A stretch of 64,000 nt of DNA, from assembly GCA_035637535.1 (NCBI GenBank), contig DASPWZ010000032.1, positions 16,421 through 80,420 on the forward strand, in the 5' to 3' direction. Positions 37,469-61,247 of the stretch are shown here, piece by piece (position 1 is the stretch's first letter; every line of letters starts with the position of its first letter). The position numbers were made by a program, and so were the translations under genes. Source of the DNA: Candidatus Dormiibacterota bacterium. Its GTDB lineage: Archaea; Thermoproteota; Bathyarchaeia; 40CM-2-53-6. The notes beneath the pieces are model-generated. The model was not told the origin of the DNA, did not search any database, and was given only the letters and a program-made list of their open reading frames with translations.

Positions 37469-38014
37469 CTAGGCGACGCCGGCGACGATTCCAAAGTATA
37501 CGCTTACGAGGCCTACGACTATGGCGATGGGTGGGAAGGCAAGGATCGAGCCGATCGTCTCGAGAATGTCTTCCACAAATCTCAGAAGGGTGTAAAGGAT
37601 CAGAGTAATGATCAGGAAAATTATGCCCAGTTCAAGATTGTTCAGCAAGCCCGGAAACGCAACTCGGAGATAAGCCGCGACAAGTATTCCGATGCCGAGG
37701 GAGATCAGTGATGCCCAGCGCAGGTTTTTCAGAGGACGGGAGATAAGTAGTATTCCGAGGACTGCCATGATGGGGAGATAGTACTTGAGATATGGATAGT
37801 TCGAGTTTGTATTTGGCTCGAATACTATCCCGAATATGTTAGAGAGAAAGTTGAGACCGAGTGCCAGATCTATGGCCACTATGATTACAGCTATGCCTAC
37901 AAAGAAGCCGATGATCGACAGGAAGCGCGCGAGATCCTTTGATGCGCGTTTGAAGAGCGGTGCGGTTGCGCATACTCCTCCGACTATGAGGAGGATTGCT
38001 GTGGAGACGACCAT
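37469..38014 (-). CDS. hypothetical polytopic membrane protein (sits where S11 normally is)
   Basis: 181 aa, 5-6 TM helices, no ribosomal-protein similarity. Confidence 0.55.
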   Translation of the reverse strand: MVVSTAILLIVGGVCATAPLFKRASKDLARFLSIIGFFVGIAVIIVAIDLALGLNFLSNIFGIVFEPNTNSNYPYLKYYLPIMAVLGILLISRPLKNLRWASLISLGIGILVAAYLRVAFPGLLNNLELGIIFLIITLILYTLLRFVEDILETIGSILAFPPIAIVVGLVSVYFGIVAGVA

Positions 38015-40407: not shown

Positions 40408-40453
40408 ATGGTGCGGGAGGTGGGATTTGAACCCACGAACCCCTACGGGACAG
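40408..40453 (-). repeat. att direct repeat, distal copy
   Basis: atggtgcgggaggtgggatttgaacccacgaacccctacgggacag, identical to 53293-53338. Confidence 0.9.
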
Positions 40454-40467
40454 AGTCCTGAACCCTG
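40409..40467 (-). pseudogene. tRNA-Leu-like 3' fragment carrying a CAG anticodon arm (element side of att)
   Basis: Minus strand reads CAGGG-TTCAGGA-CTCTG-TCCCGTAGGGGTTC-GTGGGTTCAAATCCCAC-CTCCCGC-A-CCA. No 5' acceptor or D arm is found upstream. Confidence 0.75.
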
Positions 40468-40558
40468 CGGGTTCGGACTGGCGCCTTTTTCTTGCAAGTT
40501 GGTTCAGTCATAGGTACCTACTAAGGCATATATGGTTTTGGGTACCTACTGATCTCAT

Positions 40559-42599: not shown

Positions 42600-43142
42600 C
42601 TATTCATCCAGTTTTCTCAATATGTGTCTGGCGCTTTCTAGCAATCGTAGACTCTTCAGACCTGCAAACACCACCTTACCACTCGCAAAAACCAAGACCG
42701 ACGCTCCCTCAAGTTCTTCCGCATAATATATTGCTCCTGAGAATTGCTCTGGCTCATAGAGAACGTTTGGTCTGGTGGCAAGCCGCTCAATGTCTATGGG
42801 CTTTCCAAGTCCGCCTGTTGCCACAATATTTCGGAGCTTTACGACTAGCTTTGTTGGTTTAATCAGCCTGAGTTTCGCAACCTTTCTTGCTGCATATTCA
42901 AGGTCAAGCCTAGCATCTTCTAGACCCTTCGCACCCACACAAATCATCCTTCCAGTGGAAAAAATGGAGACTTTGCCCTTCATTTCCGAATCTTTGAGAT
43001 ACGCACATCTGTACACTGTCGGGTCATAACGGAAACCTTCGATTCCAACCAGCATCTGTAAGTTGACGAGTTGATTGAGGTCTGCTGTTGCAACTAGGTT
43101 CACAATGTTGAGCTTTGGAAGCAGTTCTTGCAGGGCTTGCAA
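42600..43142 (-). CDS. tbp: TATA-box binding protein, element-encoded paralog
   Basis: 180 aa with two TBP repeats (NIVNLVATADL...KVSIFSTGRMICVGAK; LRNIVATGGL...SVLVFASGKVVFAGLK). Confidence 0.9.
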   Translation of the reverse strand: MQALQELLPKLNIVNLVATADLNQLVNLQMLVGIEGFRYDPTVYRCAYLKDSEMKGKVSIFSTGRMICVGAKGLEDARLDLEYAARKVAKLRLIKPTKLVVKLRNIVATGGLGKPIDIERLATRPNVLYEPEQFSGAIYYAEELEGASVLVFASGKVVFAGLKSLRLLESARHILRKLDE

Positions 43143-45541
43143 TCTCCGAAATGGTCTGGGATATGCTTCAACCTACATCTCAGCGGACGACTAAAGGTCT
43201 TATTCCCTTCAAAACAGCGGATGGCGGACCATTGGCTCCATCCAGAGACTTTGAGAACCAAGTTGCAGCCTCACTAGCTGGCATTGTGAAGCAACTGGCC
43301 ACGGGACCAACTCCCCCTTCGGGGGAAGGCAAGGAAAGAGTCCTGCGAACCCTCATCCGAGACAGACTTCTGATCGACACCCTTGGCTGGCCAAGAGAAA
43401 AGCTCCTCTTCGGAGAAATTTACGACATCTACGGGTTTGACCTTCTCAACTATCTTGTAACTTACGTAGAGACAAAGACACCCAATCTTCCAAGACTCAA
43501 CGCCGACGCGATTAACCAATTCGAAAGAAATCTGAAGAGACTTGGGACCTGCGATTTTGGATTCATCACAAACGGCCATCAACTGATTGGGTATGATTGC
43601 ACAACTGGACCTTCTGGAATCAAAGTTTCCCAGAATGAATCAATCGATCTGGAAGACGTAGCTACACAATACCAATCCGGAAAAATCAACGAAAGAACAA
43701 TCGAGAAGCTCTTAACCATCTTTCGACCTCTGAAAGCGAGCCGTTACTTAACAGCGGGACCTTCCTCTTATGAAGTGGAGTTCGGGAAAGTTCACCCAAA
43801 GCCTCAGCGTTCTGACGAAATTCGGATTCTTAGCACCCAAATGAAGAGTGCACTGGACGAGCTAACGGACATGCTTGTGGATGTACTCAGAACATTCCTG
43901 GGGACAAGCATTCCGATCGGCTCATCAAACGGTACCGGATTTACCATATGGGCCCCACTCGATGACTGGAGCACATACTCGGGAAGAGTCCCACCTACCA
44001 CTATCGGCAATTACCTTGATGACAAAGTTAGGAAGCTAAGCGAACTTCGCAAGTCCAGTAAACTCAACAATGCTACATTGAAAAGAGAAGCAAGGCTAGC
44101 AAAGAGGAATCTAGGAATCGAGGCCAAAGAGGAATTGCTGAGCGAATTAATCGCCAGCTTCGTAACGGATCAAGATGGATTCGATACTCATCTAAGAGAT
44201 GAGTTGCTTGAGTTAATCGATGCAGACCATGTCCAAGTTTTCGCGAGGCAAACCGCTCACGTCATCCTCAGTCGGATCTTGCTGTATCGAGTCGCCGAAG
44301 ACAAAGGCCTTGTCGCAAGAAAACTGTCGGGAGCGAGCGTAGACCGACGTCTAAAGGACGTCGGAGGCGGACTACTCGATTGGTATCAGAAGGCGACGGC
44401 CTTCAGAAACATGGTTGATGAGGCTGAAAAGTTGATGGCTGATGTATTCTATTCTCACCTCTACCTCCATGGACTATTTGATTGGTGGGTAGTTCCGTCT
44501 GAAACAAAGGAAGAATATGATGAGAATGAAGAGGCCATCTATAGACGGGCCGAAAGATCAATTGACATTTCCCTGGAAAAATGCATCCGAATTCTCAACC
44601 GATTCGATCTCTCTGAAATTGAAAGAGATATTTGGAAAGATGTGTACCAAGAATATCTTCCCCCGAAAGAGAGAGCCAGACTTGGAGGGTTTTACACCCC
44701 GGATGAAATTGTCAACCTCATTCTCGATCGAGTCGGCTACAACGAAGCCGCGCCACTTTGCAAACTCAAGGTACTTGATCCTGCTTGTGGCAGCGGTACC
44801 TTCTTAGTTGAAGCGGCGAAGAGGCTCAGAACCCACCTAGAAACCAAGAAGATTTGCCATTCAGACCTATCGGAAATCAAGGACAATCGAGAATTGGCAT
44901 GGCGGGTTTTGAACAAAATCGTCGCGGGTTTGTTCGGGCTAGACATCCATCCATTTGCTTGTTTCTTGACCGAAATGAATGTCCTCTTTTACGTCGTAGA
45001 CCTGTTGTTAGTCGCGAAGAAACTTGAGCCGAGCCGCAAAGTCCGAGAACTGAGCATTGGTTGCGACGATTCGCTTCGGCCTCCTGAACAGGAAGTACAA
45101 CTTCAGCTGTCCCAGTTCACACAAACGAATTCTCGTGCCGAGAGCCTCGTGAAAGATCGTGAGAAAGCGCGCCGAATCAAGGGTACGGCTTTCGACATTG
45201 TGGTAGGGAATCCGCCTTGGAGTGGTGTGTTGCGAGGTGAGCTAAGCCCGCTATTTGATGAGGCAACTAAGGCTCTCTACAAACATTACCCGAGTGCGAC
45301 GGACAAGTACGACATATACGTCCTGTTTCTTGAGAGAGGCATTCGGTGGCTACCTGCTAAGGGACATCTTGGCTTTATCACGCAAAACCGATACTTGAGA
45401 AGAAGATATGGTCGCGGAATCCGGCGGTTCATAAGAGAGACCTGTTCTATGATAACACTCATCGATCTCTGGCCGGCGGGCCCTGTGGTATTTCCAGGAC
45501 GGACCAATTACCCATGCATAACGGTATTAGAGCGAATGTAA
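43115..45541 (+). CDS. type IIG/IIL (MmeI-like) restriction-modification enzyme, nuclease plus gamma-N6A methyltransferase part
   Basis: 808 aa. N-terminal D-x9-E-x-K (GFDLLNYLVTYVETK), motif I LDPACGSGTFLVEA, motif IV VVGNPPWSG. The true start is probably 43151 or 43163. Confidence 0.85.
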   Translation: MEAVLAGLAISEMVWDMLQPTSQRTTKGLIPFKTADGGPLAPSRDFENQVAASLAGIVKQLATGPTPPSGEGKERVLRTLIRDRLLIDTLGWPREKLLFGEIYDIYGFDLLNYLVTYVETKTPNLPRLNADAINQFERNLKRLGTCDFGFITNGHQLIGYDCTTGPSGIKVSQNESIDLEDVATQYQSGKINERTIEKLLTIFRPLKASRYLTAGPSSYEVEFGKVHPKPQRSDEIRILSTQMKSALDELTDMLVDVLRTFLGTSIPIGSSNGTGFTIWAPLDDWSTYSGRVPPTTIGNYLDDKVRKLSELRKSSKLNNATLKREARLAKRNLGIEAKEELLSELIASFVTDQDGFDTHLRDELLELIDADHVQVFARQTAHVILSRILLYRVAEDKGLVARKLSGASVDRRLKDVGGGLLDWYQKATAFRNMVDEAEKLMADVFYSHLYLHGLFDWWVVPSETKEEYDENEEAIYRRAERSIDISLEKCIRILNRFDLSEIERDIWKDVYQEYLPPKERARLGGFYTPDEIVNLILDRVGYNEAAPLCKLKVLDPACGSGTFLVEAAKRLRTHLETKKICHSDLSEIKDNRELAWRVLNKIVAGLFGLDIHPFACFLTEMNVLFYVVDLLLVAKKLEPSRKVRELSIGCDDSLRPPEQEVQLQLSQFTQTNSRAESLVKDREKARRIKGTAFDIVVGNPPWSGVLRGELSPLFDEATKALYKHYPSATDKYDIYVLFLERGIRWLPAKGHLGFITQNRYLRRRYGRGIRRFIRETCSMITLIDLWPAGPVVFPGRTNYPCITVLERM

Positions 45542-45542
45542 T

Positions 45543-46664
45543 ATGGCCGGCAATTTTCCTTTTGTCGAGGTAAAACAAAAAGCCCGTAAACTCGACTTAC
45601 AAGCGATTGTCAAAGAAATTGAGATGGGTCTCGCAACCGCTTCCTCCGGAGAGATGGTTGACAACGAATACATCAGAGCTTACTCCCTAGACCAAACCGT
45701 AATTCAGACCAACTCCGGCGAACCATGGAATCTCGCAGCCCCGGAAGTGTCCACGTTGAAGAAACGCATCCTATCGGTAAGCAACTGCGACCGATTGGAT
45801 TCAGTGTTTGAAATGACTCAAGGGGTGACTCCTGGAGGAGGGTGCCTCGACATCTTTCTGCTCGATTCTGCCGAATCTGTCGAAGCCGCACTCATGTCGC
45901 CGGCAGTAGAGGCTGAGGATATTGCAGATTGGAGAATCGGACTTCCTAGGAAGTGGTTGCTGTATCCTTATGCCGCTGACGGCAGGCTGATTAATTTGGG
46001 TAAGTTGGATTATGACTTGGAACAAGCAGATGCCCAAAAAAGAATAGATGCACTAATTGCTACAGGCTCAATAAAATATCCAAGGGCCTCGCGTTACCTC
46101 GTTAGGTCTTACGACAGGCTAGTTGCCCGTGAGGCTGAAAAGAAAACGTGGGACGACTACGGCAAAGAATGGTATGAGTATCACCGGCCGCGAGATCCAG
46201 CTGTAATGAAATCCTCACCAAAGATTCTCACGAGAAGGATGACTCATGACATGGAATTTGCCCTCGACGACCGTGGCTCCGTGCCCACGGATGGCTGTAT
46301 CGCTCTCACATTCAAAAAGAACAATAGGTGGCTAAAGCAAGCTCTTGAGCAAGGTCTGACAAATAACGAAGCGTTTCTTTTTTGTGTTGCAGTGTTGAAT
46401 TCATCTCTCATGAAACTCGTATTGAAGTCGAGTTCTGACGCTTGGCAGGGGAACTTTTTGCAAGTGCGGGAGGACAGTATTGGTCTATTCCCGATCAAGA
46501 TACTTGCAAATGGAGTAATGAAAAATGTCCGTCACATAGTATCGCTCACGAACGGTGCCCTGGCAGATTCTGAGAAACGCAAAGACGTGGACAAGGCAGT
46601 CATTCAATTATACGGCTTAAAATCCGATAGCGACTCGATCGTCTCTCACTCCGTCAACTCATGA
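45543..46664 (+). CDS. TaqI/Eco57I-type C-terminal target-recognition domain protein (separate ORF)
   Basis: 373 aa. Starts 1 nt after the upstream TAA. GKEWYEYHRPRD and ILTRRMTHDMEFALDD resemble the TRD of fused type IIG enzymes. Confidence 0.7.
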   Translation: MAGNFPFVEVKQKARKLDLQAIVKEIEMGLATASSGEMVDNEYIRAYSLDQTVIQTNSGEPWNLAAPEVSTLKKRILSVSNCDRLDSVFEMTQGVTPGGGCLDIFLLDSAESVEAALMSPAVEAEDIADWRIGLPRKWLLYPYAADGRLINLGKLDYDLEQADAQKRIDALIATGSIKYPRASRYLVRSYDRLVAREAEKKTWDDYGKEWYEYHRPRDPAVMKSSPKILTRRMTHDMEFALDDRGSVPTDGCIALTFKKNNRWLKQALEQGLTNNEAFLFCVAVLNSSLMKLVLKSSSDAWQGNFLQVREDSIGLFPIKILANGVMKNVRHIVSLTNGALADSEKRKDVDKAVIQLYGLKSDSDSIVSHSVNS

Positions 46665-50064: not shown

Positions 50065-51015
50065 TTGGTACTGCCAGATTACCAAACCCTAATGCTTCCG
50101 TTGATGCAGACAATCGGAGACAACCAAGTGCACGATCTGCACGACATTATCGAGTCTCTCGCCAAACAATTCAAGCTGAGGGACCCGGATAGGGTCGAAA
50201 TGCTTCCAAGCGGTAAACAGAGAACGTTCGACAATAGGGTTGGTTGGGCAAGGACTTACCTCAAGAAAGCAGGGCTTCTTGAGACTCCCAGCATGGGAAA
50301 GCTCAAGATAACCGCCCGTGGATTAGATATGTTGAAGAACAATCCGCCCAATCTTGACCGAAAGTTTCTCATGCAGTTTCCCGAGTTTGTCGAGTTCCAG
50401 AAGGTTCAACAAAAAACACTCTTGAAAAAGATTGAAACCGACGAGGACAAGAACCTGTTTAAGAGATTTCAAGCTATCTCGGATTTTGCAGCGGCCTCTA
50501 CGCCTACTGAATTGTTAGAAGCAAGTTATCAGGGTCTACGGGCCGCGTTGGCAGAAGAACTCTTAGACCGTGTTAAGAAATGCTCGCCACGGTTTTTCGA
50601 GGATCTTGTTCTGGACCTGCTTGTGCAGATGGGCTATGGTGGGTCTCGGAAAGACGCAGAGCGTGTTGGACGAAGTGGTGACGGTGGAATAGACGGCACC
50701 ATTAACGAAGATAAGTTAGGGCTGGATGTTGTCTATGTTCAGGCAAAGCGGTGGGATAAGGGAACGGTGGCGAGGAAGGAAATACAGGCATTTGTTGGCA
50801 GTCTTGAACCGAAGAAAGCTAAGAAAGGGGTCTTCATTACAACTTCCCAGTTCTCCGAGGACGCCAGAGACTACGTGAAGGGGACTGAGAAGAGAATAGT
50901 GCTCATAGACGGGGAAGAACTCGCCCAATTGATGATTGACCACGGGATTGGGGTCACCTTAGAGAACCGCTATGATATCAAGAAGGTGGACGTGGACTAC
51001 TTCAGCGAGGGATAA
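50065..51015 (+). CDS. mrr: Mrr-family type IV restriction endonuclease
   Basis: 316 aa. Mrr_N-like winged helix (LPDYQTLMLPLMQ) and an Mrr catalytic core (GDGGIDG...DVVYVQAKRW). Confidence 0.88.
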   Translation: MVLPDYQTLMLPLMQTIGDNQVHDLHDIIESLAKQFKLRDPDRVEMLPSGKQRTFDNRVGWARTYLKKAGLLETPSMGKLKITARGLDMLKNNPPNLDRKFLMQFPEFVEFQKVQQKTLLKKIETDEDKNLFKRFQAISDFAAASTPTELLEASYQGLRAALAEELLDRVKKCSPRFFEDLVLDLLVQMGYGGSRKDAERVGRSGDGGIDGTINEDKLGLDVVYVQAKRWDKGTVARKEIQAFVGSLEPKKAKKGVFITTSQFSEDARDYVKGTEKRIVLIDGEELAQLMIDHGIGVTLENRYDIKKVDVDYFSEG

Positions 51016-51289: not shown

Positions 51290-52417
51290 TCAAATGATTC
51301 CAATCATTAGCAGGAACAACACGGTAACTAGGAGTGCAGCGTAGACTGCGGCTACGAGTCTGTTCTGTAGAATTGTTCTCGCATGCTTGGTTGGAGTCTT
51401 GATTTGGACTGTTGGCACGAGGCTTAGTCCTTTGGATCTGGGAACGAACATCATTCCAGAACCATTCCTAGACGCCCATCCAGTCCATCCAAGCTCGCTA
51501 CGGTTCACGAGTGCCCGCTCTTCTTTCTCGCGCAATTGGTTGTAGACCGAATCGCCCAGCATGCTTCGAACAGTTCTCGCATCGAATGTTCCCGGCGTAC
51601 CCGTAGACCGAACTAACAGAAGGTCCGCATCAGCCCTCAGGTCGATTGGCGTCGAGTAGAATCTATGAACTGCGCTAAGAACTATCACTAATCCCTCGGT
51701 CATGCCAGCACAGCGCTTCAACGCACCGCGGATATCATAGAGTGCCCCAAGCAGTATTCCACGAGTCCTGCGGTCAACGTTGTCGAGCGCCTTGGTCATG
51801 TCGTCTAAGAATAGCAACACAGCCTTGTAGGGACGGGCTGGAAGATTGTCCAACAGGGCTACCAAGTCGCGACTTGAGCGGACCGCATAGACTGACCCAG
51901 CGCCATATCTTGAAACAAGATATTCGCAGATAGAGGACCCAATCGAGGTCTTCCCAGTGTTTGGTTTGCCGAATGCTACGATATTCAAGTGGTGTATCGC
52001 ATTGTCGTCTATGCCTTGGCTTCTCGGCAAGGGTTCTGGGATTAGCTTGTCAAGTATGCTCGCCAAAGTGGCCTCTGGATTTGGTTGGAGAATGGCAAGT
52101 GCTGCTCGTTTCAATGAACGCTCATGCAAGTGCGTTGAGCCGGAGGCTTTTTGTTTGGATTGGCCGCTAAGGTCTTTGCCGGGTCTACCGATCGCCCAGT
52201 GACCGAAGCCCAAGAATTCTAAGGCTCGATCAATCCAGCCGCCTTCGAAAAGCTCGTACGCCTCTGGCTTGTTGCCATCCCGCAAGCCACTTTGGAACCG
52301 TGATTGCTGGAACATGCTTTCAGCTTGGGTCAGAACGGCTTGCGCGCGCTCGTTGCTGAACTGGGCTCTGAGTCCGCCGAAAATCTTGGAGTTCAGCTCG
52401 ACTAGGGACGCCATCAC
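51290..52417 (-). CDS. element P-loop ATPase with C-terminal TM anchor
   Basis: 375 aa. Walker A FGKPNTGKTS, Walker B VLLFLDDMT, C-terminal LVAAVYAALLVTVLFLLMIGII. 4-nt overlap with the integrase stop. Confidence 0.75.
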   Translation of the reverse strand: MMASLVELNSKIFGGLRAQFSNERAQAVLTQAESMFQQSRFQSGLRDGNKPEAYELFEGGWIDRALEFLGFGHWAIGRPGKDLSGQSKQKASGSTHLHERSLKRAALAILQPNPEATLASILDKLIPEPLPRSQGIDDNAIHHLNIVAFGKPNTGKTSIGSSICEYLVSRYGAGSVYAVRSSRDLVALLDNLPARPYKAVLLFLDDMTKALDNVDRRTRGILLGALYDIRGALKRCAGMTEGLVIVLSAVHRFYSTPIDLRADADLLLVRSTGTPGTFDARTVRSMLGDSVYNQLREKEERALVNRSELGWTGWASRNGSGMMFVPRSKGLSLVPTVQIKTPTKHARTILQNRLVAAVYAALLVTVLFLLMIGII

Positions 52418-53268
52418 TTACGCCTCCTAAAGACTTGGACACCGTCCTCTAGTTTGCAGACAAATTCGAACCCGGTTTCGACCAGAGCTGTGACCTCTGA
52501 GAGAGTTCTAGCCGCTTTGCAATGGAAGGCGTCATCTTCCGTAGTTTGGAGTTGGATGTAGCGTAGCGTGTTCTGGATTGATTTGTGTCCTAGGAGTCTA
52601 GAGACGTGGACTATGTCCTTTGTTCGAGCATACTCCACCGTTCCTCTCCAATGGCGAAGAGTATGAAAGTGGATTGACTGTATCCTAGGGTTTCCTAGTT
52701 TGGAGGCTATTCTCTTTCTCTGCTTCTGGAACAGCCTGCCGAAGTGGTTAAGCGTTCCATCTCCCCAAACCTTCTGACTATTCCTAGGCAGCGTGCCCAG
52801 TCGCTCGGTCAATCTCAGACTTAGCTTGAGCAGTCTAGCGTTGGAGTTCTTCTCTGGTGTTACTCTTACAGTTCTCTGCTCAAGGTCTAGGTCCGTCCAT
52901 CGGACGCTCCAAGCCTCACCAGCCCTAGCCCCCGTATCTTTCAAGAAGAGCAGGAAAGAGCCTACCCTTCGTGAACATCCTCCAATCAGTTGATCTATCT
53001 CTGCTTCAGTTGGTAGGAAAGGTACCTTGTCTATTCTGCGATATCGTGGCTTGGTGAACGAAACGCCTCGAAACTTGTAGAAACTGTATAGAACGTTAGA
53101 AGCAATCTCCTTGGTTCCGAGAGACCAATCCAGTTTCGAGAGATAGCCCTTGACAGCTTCACCGTCGGCAAGGTTGCTGTGCTGGGACAGTCGTCGTAGG
53201 ATTCTGATACTTCTATCGACGCTGGATTCTCGGTATCCTTCTTTCTGTAAGTGGAAGCCGTATTCCAC
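52414..53268 (-). CDS. int: tyrosine recombinase/integrase
   Basis: 284 aa. ARAGEAWSVRW (Arg), HTLRHWRGT (HxxR), LLGHKSIQNTLRYI (His...Tyr). Adjacent to the tRNA 3' end. Confidence 0.9.
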   Translation of the reverse strand: MEYGFHLQKEGYRESSVDRSIRILRRLSQHSNLADGEAVKGYLSKLDWSLGTKEIASNVLYSFYKFRGVSFTKPRYRRIDKVPFLPTEAEIDQLIGGCSRRVGSFLLFLKDTGARAGEAWSVRWTDLDLEQRTVRVTPEKNSNARLLKLSLRLTERLGTLPRNSQKVWGDGTLNHFGRLFQKQRKRIASKLGNPRIQSIHFHTLRHWRGTVEYARTKDIVHVSRLLGHKSIQNTLRYIQLQTTEDDAFHCKAARTLSEVTALVETGFEFVCKLEDGVQVFRRRK

Positions 53269-53292: not shown

Positions 53293-53338
53293 ATGGTGCG
53301 GGAGGTGGGATTTGAACCCACGAACCCCTACGGGACAG
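53293..53338 (-). repeat. att direct repeat, tRNA-proximal copy
   Basis: Identical to 40408-40453. Confidence 0.9.
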
Positions 53339-53434
53339 GCGCCTCAGGCCTGCGCGTCCAAGACCCTACGGTCGACGGGTCTCTTTGACCTGGCTTGGCA
53401 ACACGAGCCGCCCACATACAAGGCGGACTCCCGC
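53294..53434 (-). tRNA. tRNA-Leu(GAG), 141 nt, with two non-canonical insertions
   Basis: Minus strand reads GCGGGAG...CAGGC-CTGAGGC-GCCTG-TCCCGTAGGGGTTC-GTGGGTTCAAATCCCAC-CTCCCGC-A-CCA. Hairpin inserts follow the acceptor strand and sit in the D loop. A second GCGGGAG lies at 53449-53455. Confidence 0.8.
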
Positions 53435-58013: not shown

Positions 58014-59043
58014 GTGTCTCAGCGGGCTCCCTGGGAAGAGCAGAGAAAGCTACTGGTCAAGCTTGAAGAGGAAACCGATCCCGCCCTAGGCTGTCCACCG
58101 ACGAAGAGGCCTCTCGATCAGCATCTTCGTTTCGGACTGATCAACCTGGACAAGCCTTCGGGGCCGTCCAGCCACGAAGTTGTGGCTTGGGTCAAACGAA
58201 TGTTGCGGATGAAGCATGCTGGCCATGGCGGAACTCTAGAGACCTTCGCCAGGTTGGAGCAATCCGATGGTTACAGGCGTGCTTCCTCTAGCTCTTGAAG
58301 ACGCAACAAAGACAATACAGGCGTTCCTGCTTACCGGCAAAGAGTACGTCTGCCTGATGGCGCTCCACGGTGACGTGGAAGAAAAGAAAGTCCAAGCAGT
58401 TCTCGAGGAGTTCGTCGGGGACATTCTTCAGAGGCCTCCTGTCAGAGCAGCAGTGAGGAGAGACGTGAGAAAAAGGAGAATCTACTATATTCGAGATGTC
58501 GAGATGGGTGGCCGCGACGTTCTGTTTAGGGTTGGATGTCAGGCAGGAACCTACATTCGGAAGCTCGTCTACGACGTTGGCGAGGTGCTTGGGGTTGGTG
58601 CGCACATGCGTGAGCTTCGGCGGACCCGGGCGGGAAGCTTCACTGATGAGGAATCATTCTCATTGTACGACCTGATGGAGCTGTCTGAGGCTAAGACTGA
58701 GGAGAGAGAAGTGTTGGCGAGGCGAATGGTGAAACCGATGGAGTCAGCCTTCGAGTACGTCCCAAGGATCTACATTCGTGACTCGACCGTCAGCTCAATT
58801 TGTCACGGAGCAGAGCTGGCTGTTCCAGGAATTGTCCGTCTGAGTGAGGGTATTGTTCCTAAGATGTCCATTGCGTTGTTTACATTGAAGGACGAACTTG
58901 TCGCCTTGTCGAAGGCGCTAATGTCGAGCGACCAGATGATGAAGGAGGATCACGGACTGGCTGCGAAAACGGTGAGAGTAATAATGCCTGCTGAGGCCTA
59001 TCCGCGCATGTGGAGAACGAAGACCGTCACAGTTCAGGCCTAG
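58014..59043 (+). CDS. cbf5: tRNA/rRNA pseudouridine synthase Cbf5 (TruB family), interrupted by a 22-nt BHB intron; exons 58014-58239 and 58262-59043
   Basis: The two track ORFs (58014-58298, 58267-59043) join into a 335-aa protein with [14 protein letters not shown] once 58240-58261 is removed. A PUA domain is at the C-terminus. Confidence 0.9.
58240..58261 (+). other. bulge-helix-bulge intron in cbf5 pre-mRNA
   Basis: agaccttcgccaggttggagca. The central helix is CTCT/GGAG, flanked by 3-nt bulges AGA and CAA. Cutting after the 2nd bulge nt on both strands restores the frame and the catalytic Asp codon. Confidence 0.75.
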
Positions 59044-60061: not shown

Positions 60062-60412
60062 GATTGCCTCGTGTTAGAGGGTCTTAGTCACTTAAAATCG
60101 TGCCTCCAAAGGAGTTTGTGATAGTTACGAGCGCTTGGGAATCCGGGTAACGCCAGGCTTAGAATCATTATTCCTCACGTTAATGTTTCAAGGGTGGCGT
60201 CCCCCGGGCGCGAGCACTGCCATTCGCCCGTTAAGGGTTGTTGGCTGGCTCGCTCCCATCGCCACTCTCGTTAATCTTCTCAAGAAACATCTCATGCTTC
60301 CATCCTCCAAGGGCGATTTTTGTGGGAGTTTCGCATACTGATTTCCTTGGGTTAGCGTCTTCTGGCGCGCTTTCCAAAAGGGAAAATAGTCGGTGAAACG
60401 TTGCCCAGTTTA

Positions 60413-60536
60413 GCCGGGATTCCGGAGCCTGGTACCGGGCAGTCTGCCTAGCACGCGGGCCCATGTCTGGAATAGGCTCTACTGTCAGCCTGTGCCCCTT
60501 CGGGGCGCGTGGGTTCAAATCCCACTCCCGGCGCCA
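60413..60536 (+). tRNA. tRNA-Ser (type II, G73), 124 nt, intron-containing; anticodon unresolved (CTGGAAT = GGA is the candidate)
   Basis: GCCGGGA-TT-CCGG-AGCCTGGTA-CCGG...GCCCCTTCGGGGC...GTGGGTTCAAATCCCAC-TCCCGGC-G-CCA. About 36 nt are surplus around the anticodon region. Confidence 0.75.
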
Positions 60537-60544
60537 ACACGCTA

Positions 60545-60660
60545 TACGGTTCTAGCTCGTAAAGTGTGAAGGAGTTTTTTTGTTCAGACATACCCCTAGG
60601 GGGGTCGAGAAATAGTTAGTAGAAAAGAAAAGATAACAGATCCTAGAGAACTCCCAAAGC
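60545..60660 (+). repeat. tRNA-trailer module, copy R
   Basis: See 40290-40407. Contains the palindrome cccctagggg and a T7 run. Confidence 0.8.
60575..60581 (+). terminator. oligo-T (T7) terminator candidate downstream of tRNA-Ser
   Basis: A T7 run 39-45 nt after the CCA end. Confidence 0.35.
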
Positions 60661-61012
60661 GCTGTTTTGTGTCGCAGGAATTTTTTATTTTCTAAATTCT
60701 AGAAGAGGGGCTGCTCGCTGCCTGGAACGTTTCTGGGCGAATTTTCCGATTTTTCTCGCAGAATGGCCGAATCAGCCATTTTCAACTGGGCATTTGCTGA
60801 ATCATGCAAGCGTGAAACTGGGCTCCATATGGAACCCCCTCCTAGATTCCGGATCAGGGCTGATTCTGAACGATTTCTCTTAGGATCGTTCTGTGTGCTG
60901 AAAACCACGCTTTTGGATCATCCTGACTACGGGCCGGCTTTTGTCGTGTGAGCCTTCCTAGTCTTTCTTCTTGAAGTGTTTTTCCCAGAAGCCTTGCTTT
61001 CTCTTTGCGATT

Positions 61013-61045
61013 CTCGAGAAATAGTTAGTAGAAAAAAGAAAAACT
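61013..61045 (+). repeat. third, partial copy of the trailer module (direct repeat of 60606-60638)
   Basis: tcgagaaatagttagtagaaaa is identical in both copies, followed by A/G-rich similarity. Confidence 0.6.
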
Positions 61046-61247
61046 GTTGAATGGTTTTCGAGATCGCATTGTGACTGAACCGCTGACAAATTCGAAGCTG
61101 CGACGTCAAGGATTCAGCTTAGACAATCAACCTGTTTCGGTATCATGAAGCGTCTAGTCGTGAAACCCTCGCTCTATAGACGTCTTTTTGCGAATTCTCC
61201 CCGGTATAGCCCCTTATACTAGGAAGGCGAAACCTATACTGTTCCAG

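What the first reader, a model, noticed from the sequence alone, without database searches (positions are those of the whole stretch)
58240..58261. 22-nt bulge-helix-bulge intron in the cbf5 mRNA, splitting the catalytic Asp codon
The ORF track breaks the pseudouridine synthase into 58014-58298 and 58267-59043, a +1 shift. Frame A reads ...[10 protein letters not shown] and then nonsense ([19 protein letters not shown]). Frame B resumes with [12 protein letters not shown]. Deleting 58240-58261 joins cta-g|at-ccg-atg to give [14 protein letters not shown]. This restores the universal TruB/Cbf5 GTLDP motif, with the Asp codon built from G (exon 1) plus AT (exon 2), and yields a 335-aa ORF. The flanks fold as hBHBh'. 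The outer helix is GGA(58230-32)/TCC(58263-65). The 4-bp central helix is CTCT(58234-37)/GGAG(58256-59). The 3-nt bulges are AGA(58238-40) and CAA(58260-62). The inner helix is GACC/GGTT with a 7-nt loop. Cutting after the second bulge nucleotide on both strands gives exactly the required junction. cbf5 is the classic protein-coding gene reported to carry a splicing-endonuclease intron in Crenarchaeota.
Basis: partly seen in the sequence, partly recalled or inferred. Interest (0 to 1): 0.65.

Follow-up and report, generated by a model that had tools for sequence, protein, structure and literature searches.

The report
Spliced mini-intron in Bathyarchaeal cbf5 gene
A 22-base intron of the type normally cut out of archaeal tRNAs interrupts the catalytic codon of the pseudouridine synthase gene cbf5 in this soil Bathyarchaeon; it is the same kind of intron already known from hot-spring Crenarchaeota, now found across a second major archaeal class.

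Summary
Removing window 58240-58261 (22 nt) joins cta-g|at-ccg and restores HGGTLDP. The result is a 335-aa Cbf5 that aligns without a gap to Pyrococcus Cbf5 (E 1e-115). The flanks fold into a bulge-helix-bulge (BHB) whose cut sites give exactly that junction. The motif is relaxed, not strict: A58233 is unpaired opposite the 3' bulge.

The fold alone is not significant, because such motifs are common in the window. The proof is comparative:
- 70 cbf5 loci carry an insert at this codon (18-39 nt, 64 distinct sequences).
- All 70 keep the 4-bp central helix, and 69 keep the full BHB.
- Compensatory changes occur in all three helices.
- All 26 frame-preserving inserts contain a stop codon.
- Both exons are under purifying selection (dN/dS 0.03-0.14).

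The window comes from a soil Bathyarchaeon. The published cbf5 intron (Desulfurococcales and Sulfolobales) has the same position, size range and unconventional BHB. This is therefore a new member of a known kind. It extends the intron's range to most Bathyarchaeia and reopens the question of when it arose.

The same window holds a tRNA-Leu gene with two non-canonical BHB introns, which shows that the organism splices relaxed motifs. No RNA data were available.

The parts
58014..58239 (+). cbf5 exon 1. It runs from the GTG start through the first letter (G) of the catalytic Asp codon and encodes the DKCLD domain and the start of the TruB_N domain, ending ...KHAGHGGTL-(D).
   Evidence: ORF listing, spliced translation, Pfam DKCLD and TruB_N, alignment to Pyrococcus Cbf5 residues 11-85, dN/dS 0.03-0.14.
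58240..58261 (+). The 22-nt BHB intron AGACCUUCGCCAGGUUGGAGCA. The alternative 58241-58262 gives the same product; the BHB cut rule selects 58239|58240 and 58261|58262.
   Evidence: It is the only deletion that restores GTLDPMVTG. The blind BHB scan finds this intron. Homologous inserts of 18-39 nt sit at the same codon in 69 other loci.
58262..59043 (+). cbf5 exon 2. It begins with the AT of the Asp codon and encodes the rest of TruB_N, TruB_C_2 and the PUA domain. The stop codon is included.
   Evidence: dN/dS 0.06-0.11.
58229..58232 (+). Outer helix (h), 5' strand CGGA. It pairs with 58263-58266.
   Evidence: MFE fold. Pair 11-59 of alignment A1 is A-U 15, G-C 3, G-U 3, other 1.
58233..58233 (+). 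Unpaired A, the first letter of the Thr codon, opposite the 3' bulge. This nucleotide makes the motif relaxed rather than a strict hBHBh'.
   Evidence: 33 of 70 loci need this unpaired nucleotide and 36 of 70 can form the strict motif.
58234..58237 (+). Central 4-bp helix (H), 5' (exonic) strand CUCU.
   Evidence: It is 100% paired in 22 of 22 sequences and in 70 of 70 loci, with six different strand combinations.
58238..58240 (+). 5' bulge AGA. The cut falls after its second nucleotide (58239|58240).
   Evidence: [quoted passage not shown]
58241..58255 (+). Inner helix (h') GACCU/AGGUU (58241-45 / 58251-55) closing a 5-nt loop UCGCC (58246-50).
   Evidence: All five inner-helix pairs show changes on both sides among relatives.
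58256..58259 (+). Central helix, 3' (intronic) strand GGAG.
58260..58262 (+). 3' bulge CAA. The cut falls after its second nucleotide (58261|58262).
58263..58266 (+). Outer helix, 3' strand UCCG (the third letter of the Asp codon plus the Pro codon).

Best explanation
Window 58240-58261 is a 22-nt archaeal bulge-helix-bulge intron in the cbf5 pre-mRNA.

Proposed mechanism:
1. The transcript folds so that exon-1 sequence (CGGA-A-CUCU) pairs with the 3' end of the intron (GGAG) and with the start of exon 2 (UCCG). This presents two 3-nt bulges separated by a 4-bp helix.
2. The tRNA-splicing endonuclease (EndA) cuts after the second nucleotide of each bulge.
3. An RtcB-type ligase joins the exons.
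4. Joining recreates the GAU codon of the catalytic aspartate and an mRNA for a full-length 335-aa Cbf5, the H/ACA-guided and tRNA Psi55 pseudouridine synthase.
5. Unspliced mRNA yields only a truncated 94-aa peptide that lacks the catalytic Asp.

Shown here: the junction, the fold, its conservation with covariation, selection on both exons, and that this genome also carries relaxed BHB introns in a tRNA gene.

Inferred: the cleavage and ligation themselves, and which enzymes carry them out.
For: 1. Splicing restores HGGTLDP and a 335-aa protein with DKCLD, TruB_N, TruB_C_2 and PUA domains. It aligns without a gap across the junction to P. abyssi and P. furiosus Cbf5 (E 1.8e-115).
2. The MFE fold gives the BHB with cut sites at exactly the required junction. 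A blind BHB scan finds it.
3. In 24 of 25 insert-bearing genome loci and 69 of 70 loci overall, a BHB sits at the same offset although insert lengths range from 18 to 39 nt (64 distinct sequences).
4. Covariation on alignment A1: 93% of cells are paired, against 25-54% when partners are slid; 8 of 13 pairs change on both sides; 0 of 500 shuffles reach the observed score.
5. The central helix is paired in 70 of 70 loci through six strand combinations (CUCU/GGAG, CUCU/AGAG, CCCU/GGGG, CCCU/AGGG, CCUU/AAGG, CCUU/AGGG). This couples synonymous Thr and Leu codon positions to intron bases.
6. Insert length is indifferent to reading frame (26 of 70 are multiples of 3). All 26 in-frame inserts contain a stop codon, where shuffles give a mean chance of 0.31 each.
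7. dN/dS is 0.03-0.14 for each exon separately.
8. There is no second cbf5 in the window.
9. The same window holds a tRNA-Leu(GAG) gene that becomes recognisable only after two BHB-bounded introns at non-canonical positions are removed.
10. Literature: the crenarchaeal cbf5 intron has the same boundary, a size of 16-44 nt and an unconventional BHB, and its cleavage by heterotetrameric EndA has been demonstrated (PMC2738675). EndA and RtcB were found in all near-complete Bathyarchaeia genomes of a metatranscriptome study that also detected circularised 23S rRNA (PMC12918454).
Against: - There are no transcript data for this organism or any Bathyarchaeon, so splicing is inferred.
- The fold is not more stable than shuffled sequence (z -0.95), and the bare motif is common by chance.
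- The 3' site is not a clean 3-nt bulge because A58233 is unpaired opposite it. Homotetrameric and homodimeric EndA types are reported not to cleave non-canonical introns (PMC5829648 abstract), and the EndA type of this organism is unknown.
- No EndA or RtcB gene lies in the 64-kb window (Pfam scans of all ORFs of at least 110 aa).
Confidence: 0.9

Rival explanations
1. The gene is a frameshifted pseudogene, or the 22 nt are a sequencing or assembly error, and no functional Cbf5 is made from this locus.
For: Gene callers split the gene. Public collections hold many 258-262-aa C-terminal fragments for this clade. The unspliced sequence has a +1 shift and an early stop.
Against: - The insert is present at the same codon in dozens of independently assembled genomes and metagenomes.
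- Both exons show dN/dS of 0.03-0.14.
- Insert sequences change in a way that preserves base-pairing.
- No second copy is present in the window.
Confidence: 0.02
2. Translational recoding: the ribosome shifts +1 or hops over the 22 nt, so a full-length protein is made without RNA splicing.
For: The two ORFs overlap (58267-58298) in frames offset by +1, which is the usual signature of programmed frameshifts.
Against: - A simple +1 shift anywhere in the overlap would leave extra residues inside the GTLDP active-site motif and replace the catalytic Asp.
- Relatives have inserts of 18, 21, 24, 33 and 39 nt that need no frameshift, yet every one contains a stop codon.
- What is conserved is an RNA helix-bulge geometry at a fixed offset, not a slippery site or a peptide.
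Confidence: 0.03
3. The gene is truly split. The 94-aa N-terminal and 258-aa C-terminal polypeptides are translated separately and assemble into an active enzyme.
For: In the window, exon 2 happens to offer an ATG (58267) right after the junction.
Against: - Neither polypeptide would contain the catalytic Asp: one ends ...GGTLE..., the other starts MVTG....
- In many relatives the residue after DP is Lys or Asn, not Met, so no start codon lies at the exon-2 boundary.
- A split gene gives no reason for BHB covariation.
Confidence: 0.02
4. EndA cuts the BHB but the exons are not rejoined. The element would then be an mRNA-decay or down-regulation site rather than an intron.
For: Endonuclease-initiated mRNA decay without ligation is known for yeast TSEN (PMC10485636). 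A negative regulatory role for the cbf5 intron was proposed earlier (PMC2738675).
Against: - Without ligation the organism would make no active Cbf5 from its only detected copy.
- Both exons, and the exact phase relation across the junction, are conserved under purifying selection in 70 loci.
- Spliced cbf5 cDNAs were reported for several Crenarchaeota with the homologous intron (PMC2738675).
Confidence: 0.03

Closest known systems
The cbf5 pre-mRNA intron of Crenarchaeota (Desulfurococcales and Sulfolobales; Watanabe et al. 2002, Yoshinari et al. 2006, Yokobori et al. 2009, PMC2738675)
   Same: - Same gene.
[quoted passage not shown]
- Same size class (16-44 nt published; 22 nt here, 18-39 nt in relatives).
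- Same mostly 'unconventional' BHB, cut between the second and third bulge nucleotides.
- Too short to encode anything.
- Some lengths preserve the frame.
- Evidence of secondary loss in sub-lineages.
- Two Sulfolobales-like metagenomic loci fetched here (L081, L082; 68-69% identical to S. tokodaii Cbf5) show the identical architecture, including the unpaired A in L081.
   Different: - The host is a soil Bathyarchaeon, outside the two orders to which the intron was assigned.
- The 2009 survey found none in Thermoproteales, Thaumarchaeota or Korarchaeum. [quoted passage not shown]
- The intron sequence itself shares only the parts forced by pairing to the exons.
- Splicing has been shown experimentally in Crenarchaeota, not here.
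Archaeal tRNA and rRNA BHB introns and processing stems cleaved by EndA and ligated by RtcB
   Same: Two 3-nt bulges separated by a 4-bp helix, with symmetric cuts. The same window contains a tRNA-Leu(GAG) gene with two such introns, at positions 7/8 and in the D-arm.
   Different: - It lies in a protein-coding sequence.
- The exonic half of the motif is built from codons (Gly-Thr-Leu-Asp-Pro).
- The 3' bulge faces one unpaired nucleotide.
BHB intron in the 5' UTR of Haloferax volcanii HVO_1309 mRNA (PMC7714728)
   Same: It is an mRNA substrate of the archaeal splicing endonuclease.
   Different: It lies in a 5' UTR, not inside a codon, and it is in a euryarchaeon with a homodimeric EndA. It is unrelated in gene and position.

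Membership tests
Archaeal BHB (splicing-endonuclease) intron | Two 3-nt bulges on opposite strands separated by a 4-bp helix | tested here: met
   The MFE fold gives CUCU/GGAG between bulges AGA and CAA. The central helix is paired in 70 of 70 homologous loci and covaries.
Archaeal BHB (splicing-endonuclease) intron | Cuts after the second nucleotide of each bulge give a functional mature RNA | tested here: met
   Cuts at 58239|58240 and 58261|58262 recreate the GAU (Asp) codon and the GTLDP motif. The same holds in 69 of 70 loci.
Strict canonical hBHBh' motif | Both bulges closed directly by flanking helices of at least 2 Watson-Crick pairs, with no unpaired nucleotide opposite a bulge | tested here: not met
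   The inner helix h' is fine (5 bp). The outer helix forms only if A58233 is left unpaired opposite the 3' bulge; without that only 1 bp forms. 36 of 70 related introns can form the strict motif, and 33 of 70, including the window, cannot.
Archaeal BHB (splicing-endonuclease) intron | Cleavage by EndA and ligation by RtcB in vivo or in vitro | not testable with these tools
   No transcript or enzyme data are available. Indirect support: the window's tRNA-Leu needs two BHB introns removed, and EndA and RtcB were reported in all near-complete Bathyarchaeia genomes examined in PMC12918454.
Archaeal BHB (splicing-endonuclease) intron | The genome encodes a splicing endonuclease able to cut relaxed motifs ((alpha-beta)2 or epsilon2 type) | tested here: inconclusive
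   No PF01974, PF02778 or PF01139 protein was found among the window ORFs of at least 110 aa. The rest of the genome is not available. The subunit type in Bathyarchaeia was not found in the literature searched.
cbf5 pre-mRNA intron (as defined for Crenarchaeota) | [quoted passage not shown] | tested here: met
   Definition from PMC2738675.
cbf5 pre-mRNA intron (as defined for Crenarchaeota) | Short (16-44 nt), non-coding, with variable interior and conserved pairing to the exons | tested here: met
   22 nt here and 18-39 nt in relatives. Loops vary while helices covary.
cbf5 pre-mRNA intron (as defined for Crenarchaeota) | Common descent with the Desulfurococcales and Sulfolobales intron | tested here: inconclusive
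   A rough NJ tree of about 175 Cbf5 positions puts the intron-bearing Bathyarchaeia and the intron-bearing Sulfolobales/Desulfurococcales in separate clusters. Intron-less Thermoproteales, Thermofilum, Korarchaeum, Nitrosopumilus and Methanomethylicia appear as separate groups. This fits either an old intron with many losses or repeated gain at one site. Single-gene NJ cannot decide.
Cbf5 / TruB pseudouridine synthase | DKCLD + TruB_N + TruB_C_2 + PUA architecture with the catalytic Asp in the GTLDP motif | tested here: met
   All four Pfam domains score above their curated cut-offs on the spliced product. Identity to solved Cbf5 structures runs over residues 6-328.

The most novel reading that the evidence does not exclude
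The cbf5 BHB intron is not a local curiosity of two thermophilic orders. It is a single, very old insertion that predates the split of Bathyarchaeia from the other Thermoproteota. It has been kept at one codon since then and lost repeatedly.

On this reading it persists because it has a function. Cbf5 synthesis would depend on EndA/RtcB activity, which couples the pseudouridylation machinery to tRNA and rRNA processing capacity. The obligatory in-intron stop codon, or frameshift, would act as a fail-safe against making a catalytically dead Cbf5 that could still bind its partners.

The alternative that is also not excluded is repeated independent gain at the same codon, because the conserved exon sequence GGN-GGN-ACN-CUN-GAU-CCN already supplies half of a BHB. 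That would be equally interesting, as a mechanism of intron gain.
Probability: 0.35. Interest if true: 0.7.

Novelty: new member of a known kind. Interest (0 to 1): 0.5.

Why it matters
1. Range and origin of the intron. The only well-documented intron inside an archaeal coding sequence is moved from 'two orders of hyperthermophiles' to most of a globally abundant, largely mesophilic class, plus a few further unnamed lineages. The published inference that the intron arose in the common ancestor of Desulfurococcales and Sulfolobales therefore needs re-examination.

2. Annotation. Gene callers systematically report Bathyarchaeal cbf5 as a fragment of about 260 aa (52 of the 54 best database hits). 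This distorts annotation, and probably also marker-gene counts where cbf5 is used as a marker. The marker-gene point rests on my own knowledge and was not tested here.

3. Selection on the intron. Every frame-preserving intron carries a stop codon, and synonymous codon positions of Gly, Thr, Leu and Asp covary with intron bases. Together these give a clean natural example of selection acting on an mRNA as a splicing substrate. They also give a testable hint that unspliced mRNA must not be translated through.

Tried and rejected
- Rfam at gathering threshold over the whole window found nothing, and ARAGORN found no tRNA. Both turned out to miss an intron-bearing tRNA-Leu.
- Fold stability as evidence: rejected. 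The z-score is -0.95, and relaxed BHB motifs are as frequent in the window as in shuffled sequence.
- Search for EndA or RtcB in the window: none among all ORFs of at least 110 aa. One search failed because I gave non-ORF coordinates.
- Suspected second split gene: the slot where ribosomal protein S11 is usually encoded (37469-38014, minus strand) holds an ORF with no Pfam hit. It is simply a hydrophobic membrane protein, not an interrupted S11.
- Permissive Rfam scans of the ORF-poor stretch 59.9-61.3 kb gave only a chance-level snoRNA hit.
- Literature searches for the cbf5 intron in Bathyarchaeota, or for the EndA subunit type of Bathyarchaeia, found nothing specific. The library is incomplete, so this is absence of evidence only.
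- Reference Cbf5 sequences for Crenarchaeota were re-typed from an OCR'd supplementary alignment and contain errors. They were used only as a probe and as rough labels.
- The automated two-intron search for the tRNA gave 122 permissive solutions. I replaced it with a manual parse, which was then verified.
- The NJ trees are single-gene, unbootstrapped and only indicative.

Full report
**The observation**

The window has two overlapping ORFs, 58014-58298 and 58267-59043, offset by +1. The first ends ...[28 protein letters not shown] and the second begins [12 protein letters not shown]. Deleting 58240-58261 (AGACCTTCGCCAGGTTGGAGCA) joins CTA-G to AT-CCG. The result is an uninterrupted 335-codon frame reading ...[14 protein letters not shown]....

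I enumerated every frame-restoring deletion of 4-79 nt in the region. Only this one, and its 1-nt slide 58241-58262, recreate GTLDPMVTG. The two give an identical product because both boundaries are A.

The spliced protein has the full Cbf5 architecture: DKCLD, TruB_N, TruB_C_2 and PUA, all above Pfam's cut-offs. It aligns over residues 6-328 with the solved Pyrococcus Cbf5 structures at E about 1e-115, with no gap at the junction ([16 protein letters not shown] against AGHGGTLDPKVSGVLP). tblastn of the spliced protein against the window finds only the two exons, so there is no second copy here.

**The RNA fold in this sequence**

The minimum-free-energy fold of 58215-58285 has these parts:
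- Outer helix: CGGA 58229-32 / UCCG 58263-66.
- Unpaired A58233.
- Central helix: CUCU 58234-37 / GGAG 58256-59.
- Bulges: AGA 58238-40 and CAA 58260-62.
- Inner helix: GACCU / AGGUU around a 5-nt loop.

Cutting after the second nucleotide of each bulge gives exactly the required junction. That is the rule stated for archaeal BHB introns, including the cbf5 ones (PMC2738675).

Two caveats apply. The fold is not more stable than shuffled sequence (z = -0.95). A relaxed BHB of this kind is also a frequent chance pattern: about 270 per strand in the window, the same as in shuffles. The single-sequence argument therefore rests only on the coincidence of the motif with the one junction that repairs the gene, which is roughly 1-2 in 10,000 for a pre-specified pair of sites.

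**Comparative evidence, which settles the matter**

A scan of one genome per species places the window in soil Bathyarchaeia. The closest locus is L001 at 96% identity. L002, L020 and L036 are 90-92% identical and come from soil metagenome bins.

Of the 28 Bathyarchaeia loci retrieved, 24 have an insert at exactly this codon, with lengths of 18, 20, 21, 22, 23, 24 or 39 nt. None of the Methanomethylicia, Hadarchaeota, Hydrothermarchaeota, methanogen, DPANN or Asgard loci has one.

A second scan, of metagenome contigs, used an approximate Sulfolobus Cbf5 as probe. It added 45 more insert-bearing loci.

Across the window plus 69 loci (64 distinct insert sequences):
- The four bases at the fixed offset upstream of the 5' cut pair perfectly with the four bases at the fixed offset upstream of the 3' cut in 70 of 70 loci.
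- The full BHB is present in 69 of 70.
- The central helix occurs as CUCU/GGAG, CUCU/AGAG, CCCU/GGGG, CCCU/AGGG, CCUU/AAGG and CCUU/AGGG. Synonymous changes in the Thr codon (ACU/ACC) and the Leu codon (CUN/UUA) are therefore matched by changes in the intron.
- In the outer helix, the third letter of a Gly codon (GGA/GGG) tracks the third letter of the Asp codon (GAU/GAC).

A formal count on 22 Bathyarchaeal sequences gives these figures:
- 93% of cells are paired, against 25-54% when the 3' partners are slid by 1-3 columns.
- 8 of 13 pairs have changes on both sides.
- All five inner-helix pairs covary.
- None of 500 column shuffles reaches the observed covariation score.

**Evidence that the insert is not translated and the gene is not dead**

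Insert length ignores the reading frame: 26 of 70 are multiples of three, as expected by chance. All 26 frame-preserving inserts nevertheless contain an in-frame stop. Composition-preserving shuffles give a stop in only 31% of cases on average. The sequences are not independent, but the stops sit at different places in at least eight unrelated-looking inserts.

Each exon on its own shows dN/dS of 0.03-0.14 against relatives whose synonymous divergence reaches 0.6 or more.

Together these results exclude a pseudogene, an assembly artefact and a simple programmed frameshift. They also make separate translation of two half-proteins implausible, since neither half would contain the catalytic Asp.

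**Mechanism**

The best-supported mechanism is the established archaeal pathway. EndA recognises the BHB and cuts both bulges, and an RtcB-type ligase joins the exons. This step is inferred.

Two facts support it for this organism. First, the window contains a tRNA-Leu(GAG) gene (53434-53297, minus strand) that ARAGORN and Rfam miss. It becomes a perfect 88-nt class-II tRNA only when two segments are both removed: 53427-53402 (26 nt, between positions 7 and 8) and 53382-53356 (27 nt, in the D-arm). Each segment is bounded by a 4-bp central helix and a 5-bp inner helix, with a weak outer helix. The organism must therefore splice relaxed BHB introns at non-canonical positions. In the literature this ability is tied to the (alpha-beta)2 and epsilon2 endonuclease types (PMC5829648 abstract).

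Second, a metatranscriptome study reports EndA and RtcB in all near-complete Bathyarchaeia genomes it examined, together with circularised 23S rRNA (PMC12918454). No EndA or RtcB gene lies in this window.

**Comparison with what is known**

The cbf5 intron was discovered in Aeropyrum and Sulfolobus in 2002 and surveyed in 43 Crenarchaeota in 2009. Its published properties (PMC2738675) are:
- It is 16-44 nt long.
- It mostly has an unconventional BHB.
- It is cleaved by the heterotetrameric endonuclease.
- It was inferred to have arisen in the ancestor of Desulfurococcales and Sulfolobales, with secondary losses.
- It was absent from Thermoproteales, Cenarchaeum, Nitrosopumilus and Korarchaeum.

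Position, size, motif type and cut rule are all met here. Two Sulfolobales-like loci that I retrieved (L081, L082) have the same architecture as the window, including the unpaired A in L081. The feature is thus a member of a known kind.

What is not in the literature I could search is its presence in Bathyarchaeia. The only papers mentioning both terms do so in unrelated contexts. [quoted passage not shown]

**Distribution**

On rough neighbour-joining trees:
- The intron-bearing sequences cover nearly the whole Bathyarchaeia cluster.
- Several intron-less groups are nested inside it: L029/L052, L140/L146/L149/L151/L154, L089/L115-L118/L137/L138 and others. This suggests repeated loss.
- L025 is intron-less and falls basal in the Bathyarchaeia cluster, and inside it.
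- The Methanomethylicia loci, which lie nearest the Bathyarchaeia cluster, have no intron.
- A few further intron-bearing loci fall elsewhere: L133 near Thermofilum, L095 and L139 near an unnamed 'Thermoprotei' bin, and L101 with no close reference.

This pattern fits either one ancient gain with many losses or repeated gain at one codon. The conserved exon sequence already provides the exonic half of the BHB, which could favour repeated gain. These trees are single-gene and unbootstrapped, and they cannot decide between the two.

**Context and limits**

The gene sits at the end of the conserved archaeal cluster L15-SecY-adenylate kinase-EMC3/TMCO1-like-L34e-cytidylate kinase-L14e-cbf5. Everything about actual RNA processing is inferred from sequence; no expression data were available. 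The reference crenarchaeal protein sequences were re-typed from an OCR'd supplement and are only approximate.

**Verdict**

The finding is a well-supported new lineage for a known intron, with moderate interest for archaeal RNA biology and for genome annotation.

Noticed in passing
window 53297-53434 (minus strand): A tRNA-Leu(GAG) gene with an encoded CCA carries two introns at non-canonical positions. One is 53427-53402 (26 nt, between tRNA positions 7 and 8). The other is 53382-53356 (27 nt, in the D-arm). Each has a 4-bp central helix and a 5-bp inner helix but almost no outer helix. ARAGORN and Rfam do not see the gene. After both segments are removed, ARAGORN calls a perfect 88-nt tRNA-Leu.
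   Followed up: yes
window 40408-40472 and 53293-53357, and the 12.9 kb between them: A 65-nt direct repeat (first 46 nt identical) equals the 3' part of the tRNA-Leu gene. It brackets an island that encodes a TBP (42603-43142, minus strand), an Eco57I-like type IIG restriction-modification enzyme (43115-45538), a TaqI_C specificity protein (45543-46661), Mrr (50065-51012) and a tyrosine integrase (52417-53268, minus strand). This looks like an element integrated into tRNA-Leu, lying between two ribosomal-protein clusters.
   Followed up: partly
cbf5 introns of L003, L005-L007, L014, L017, L022, L023, L027, L093, L095, L109, L110, L123, L128, L134-L136, L141-L143, L147, L148, L155, L156, L158: Every one of the 26 frame-preserving cbf5 introns contains an in-frame stop codon. 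Shuffled introns have one in about 31% of cases. This suggests selection against read-through of unspliced mRNA. The loci are phylogenetically non-independent, and that was not corrected for.
   Followed up: partly
L095, L101, L133, L139 (metagenome contigs Ga0180302_10001316, Ga0078972_1000058, Ga0209410_1004968, Ga0180301_10000796): These cbf5 loci carry the same intron (20-24 nt), but their proteins match neither Bathyarchaeia nor Sulfolobales/Desulfurococcales references well (48-65% best identity). They are possibly further lineages with the intron. Their taxonomy was not determined.
   Followed up: no
window 37469-38014 (minus strand): Between the S4 and RpoD genes, where archaea usually encode ribosomal protein S11, there is instead a 181-aa strongly hydrophobic ORF with no Pfam match. 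No S11 gene was seen in the window.
   Followed up: partly
window 60062-61187: About 1.1 kb downstream of the cbf5 neighbourhood has no ORF of at least 110 aa and no credible Rfam match; the only hit is a chance-level snoRNA model at E 0.87.
   Followed up: partly
public protein collection: For this clade the database holds almost only cbf5 fragments of 258-262 aa, some named 'tRNA pseudouridine55 synthase' or 'H/ACA ribonucleoprotein complex subunit 4'. The intron therefore causes systematic truncated gene calls in Bathyarchaeia.
   Followed up: no
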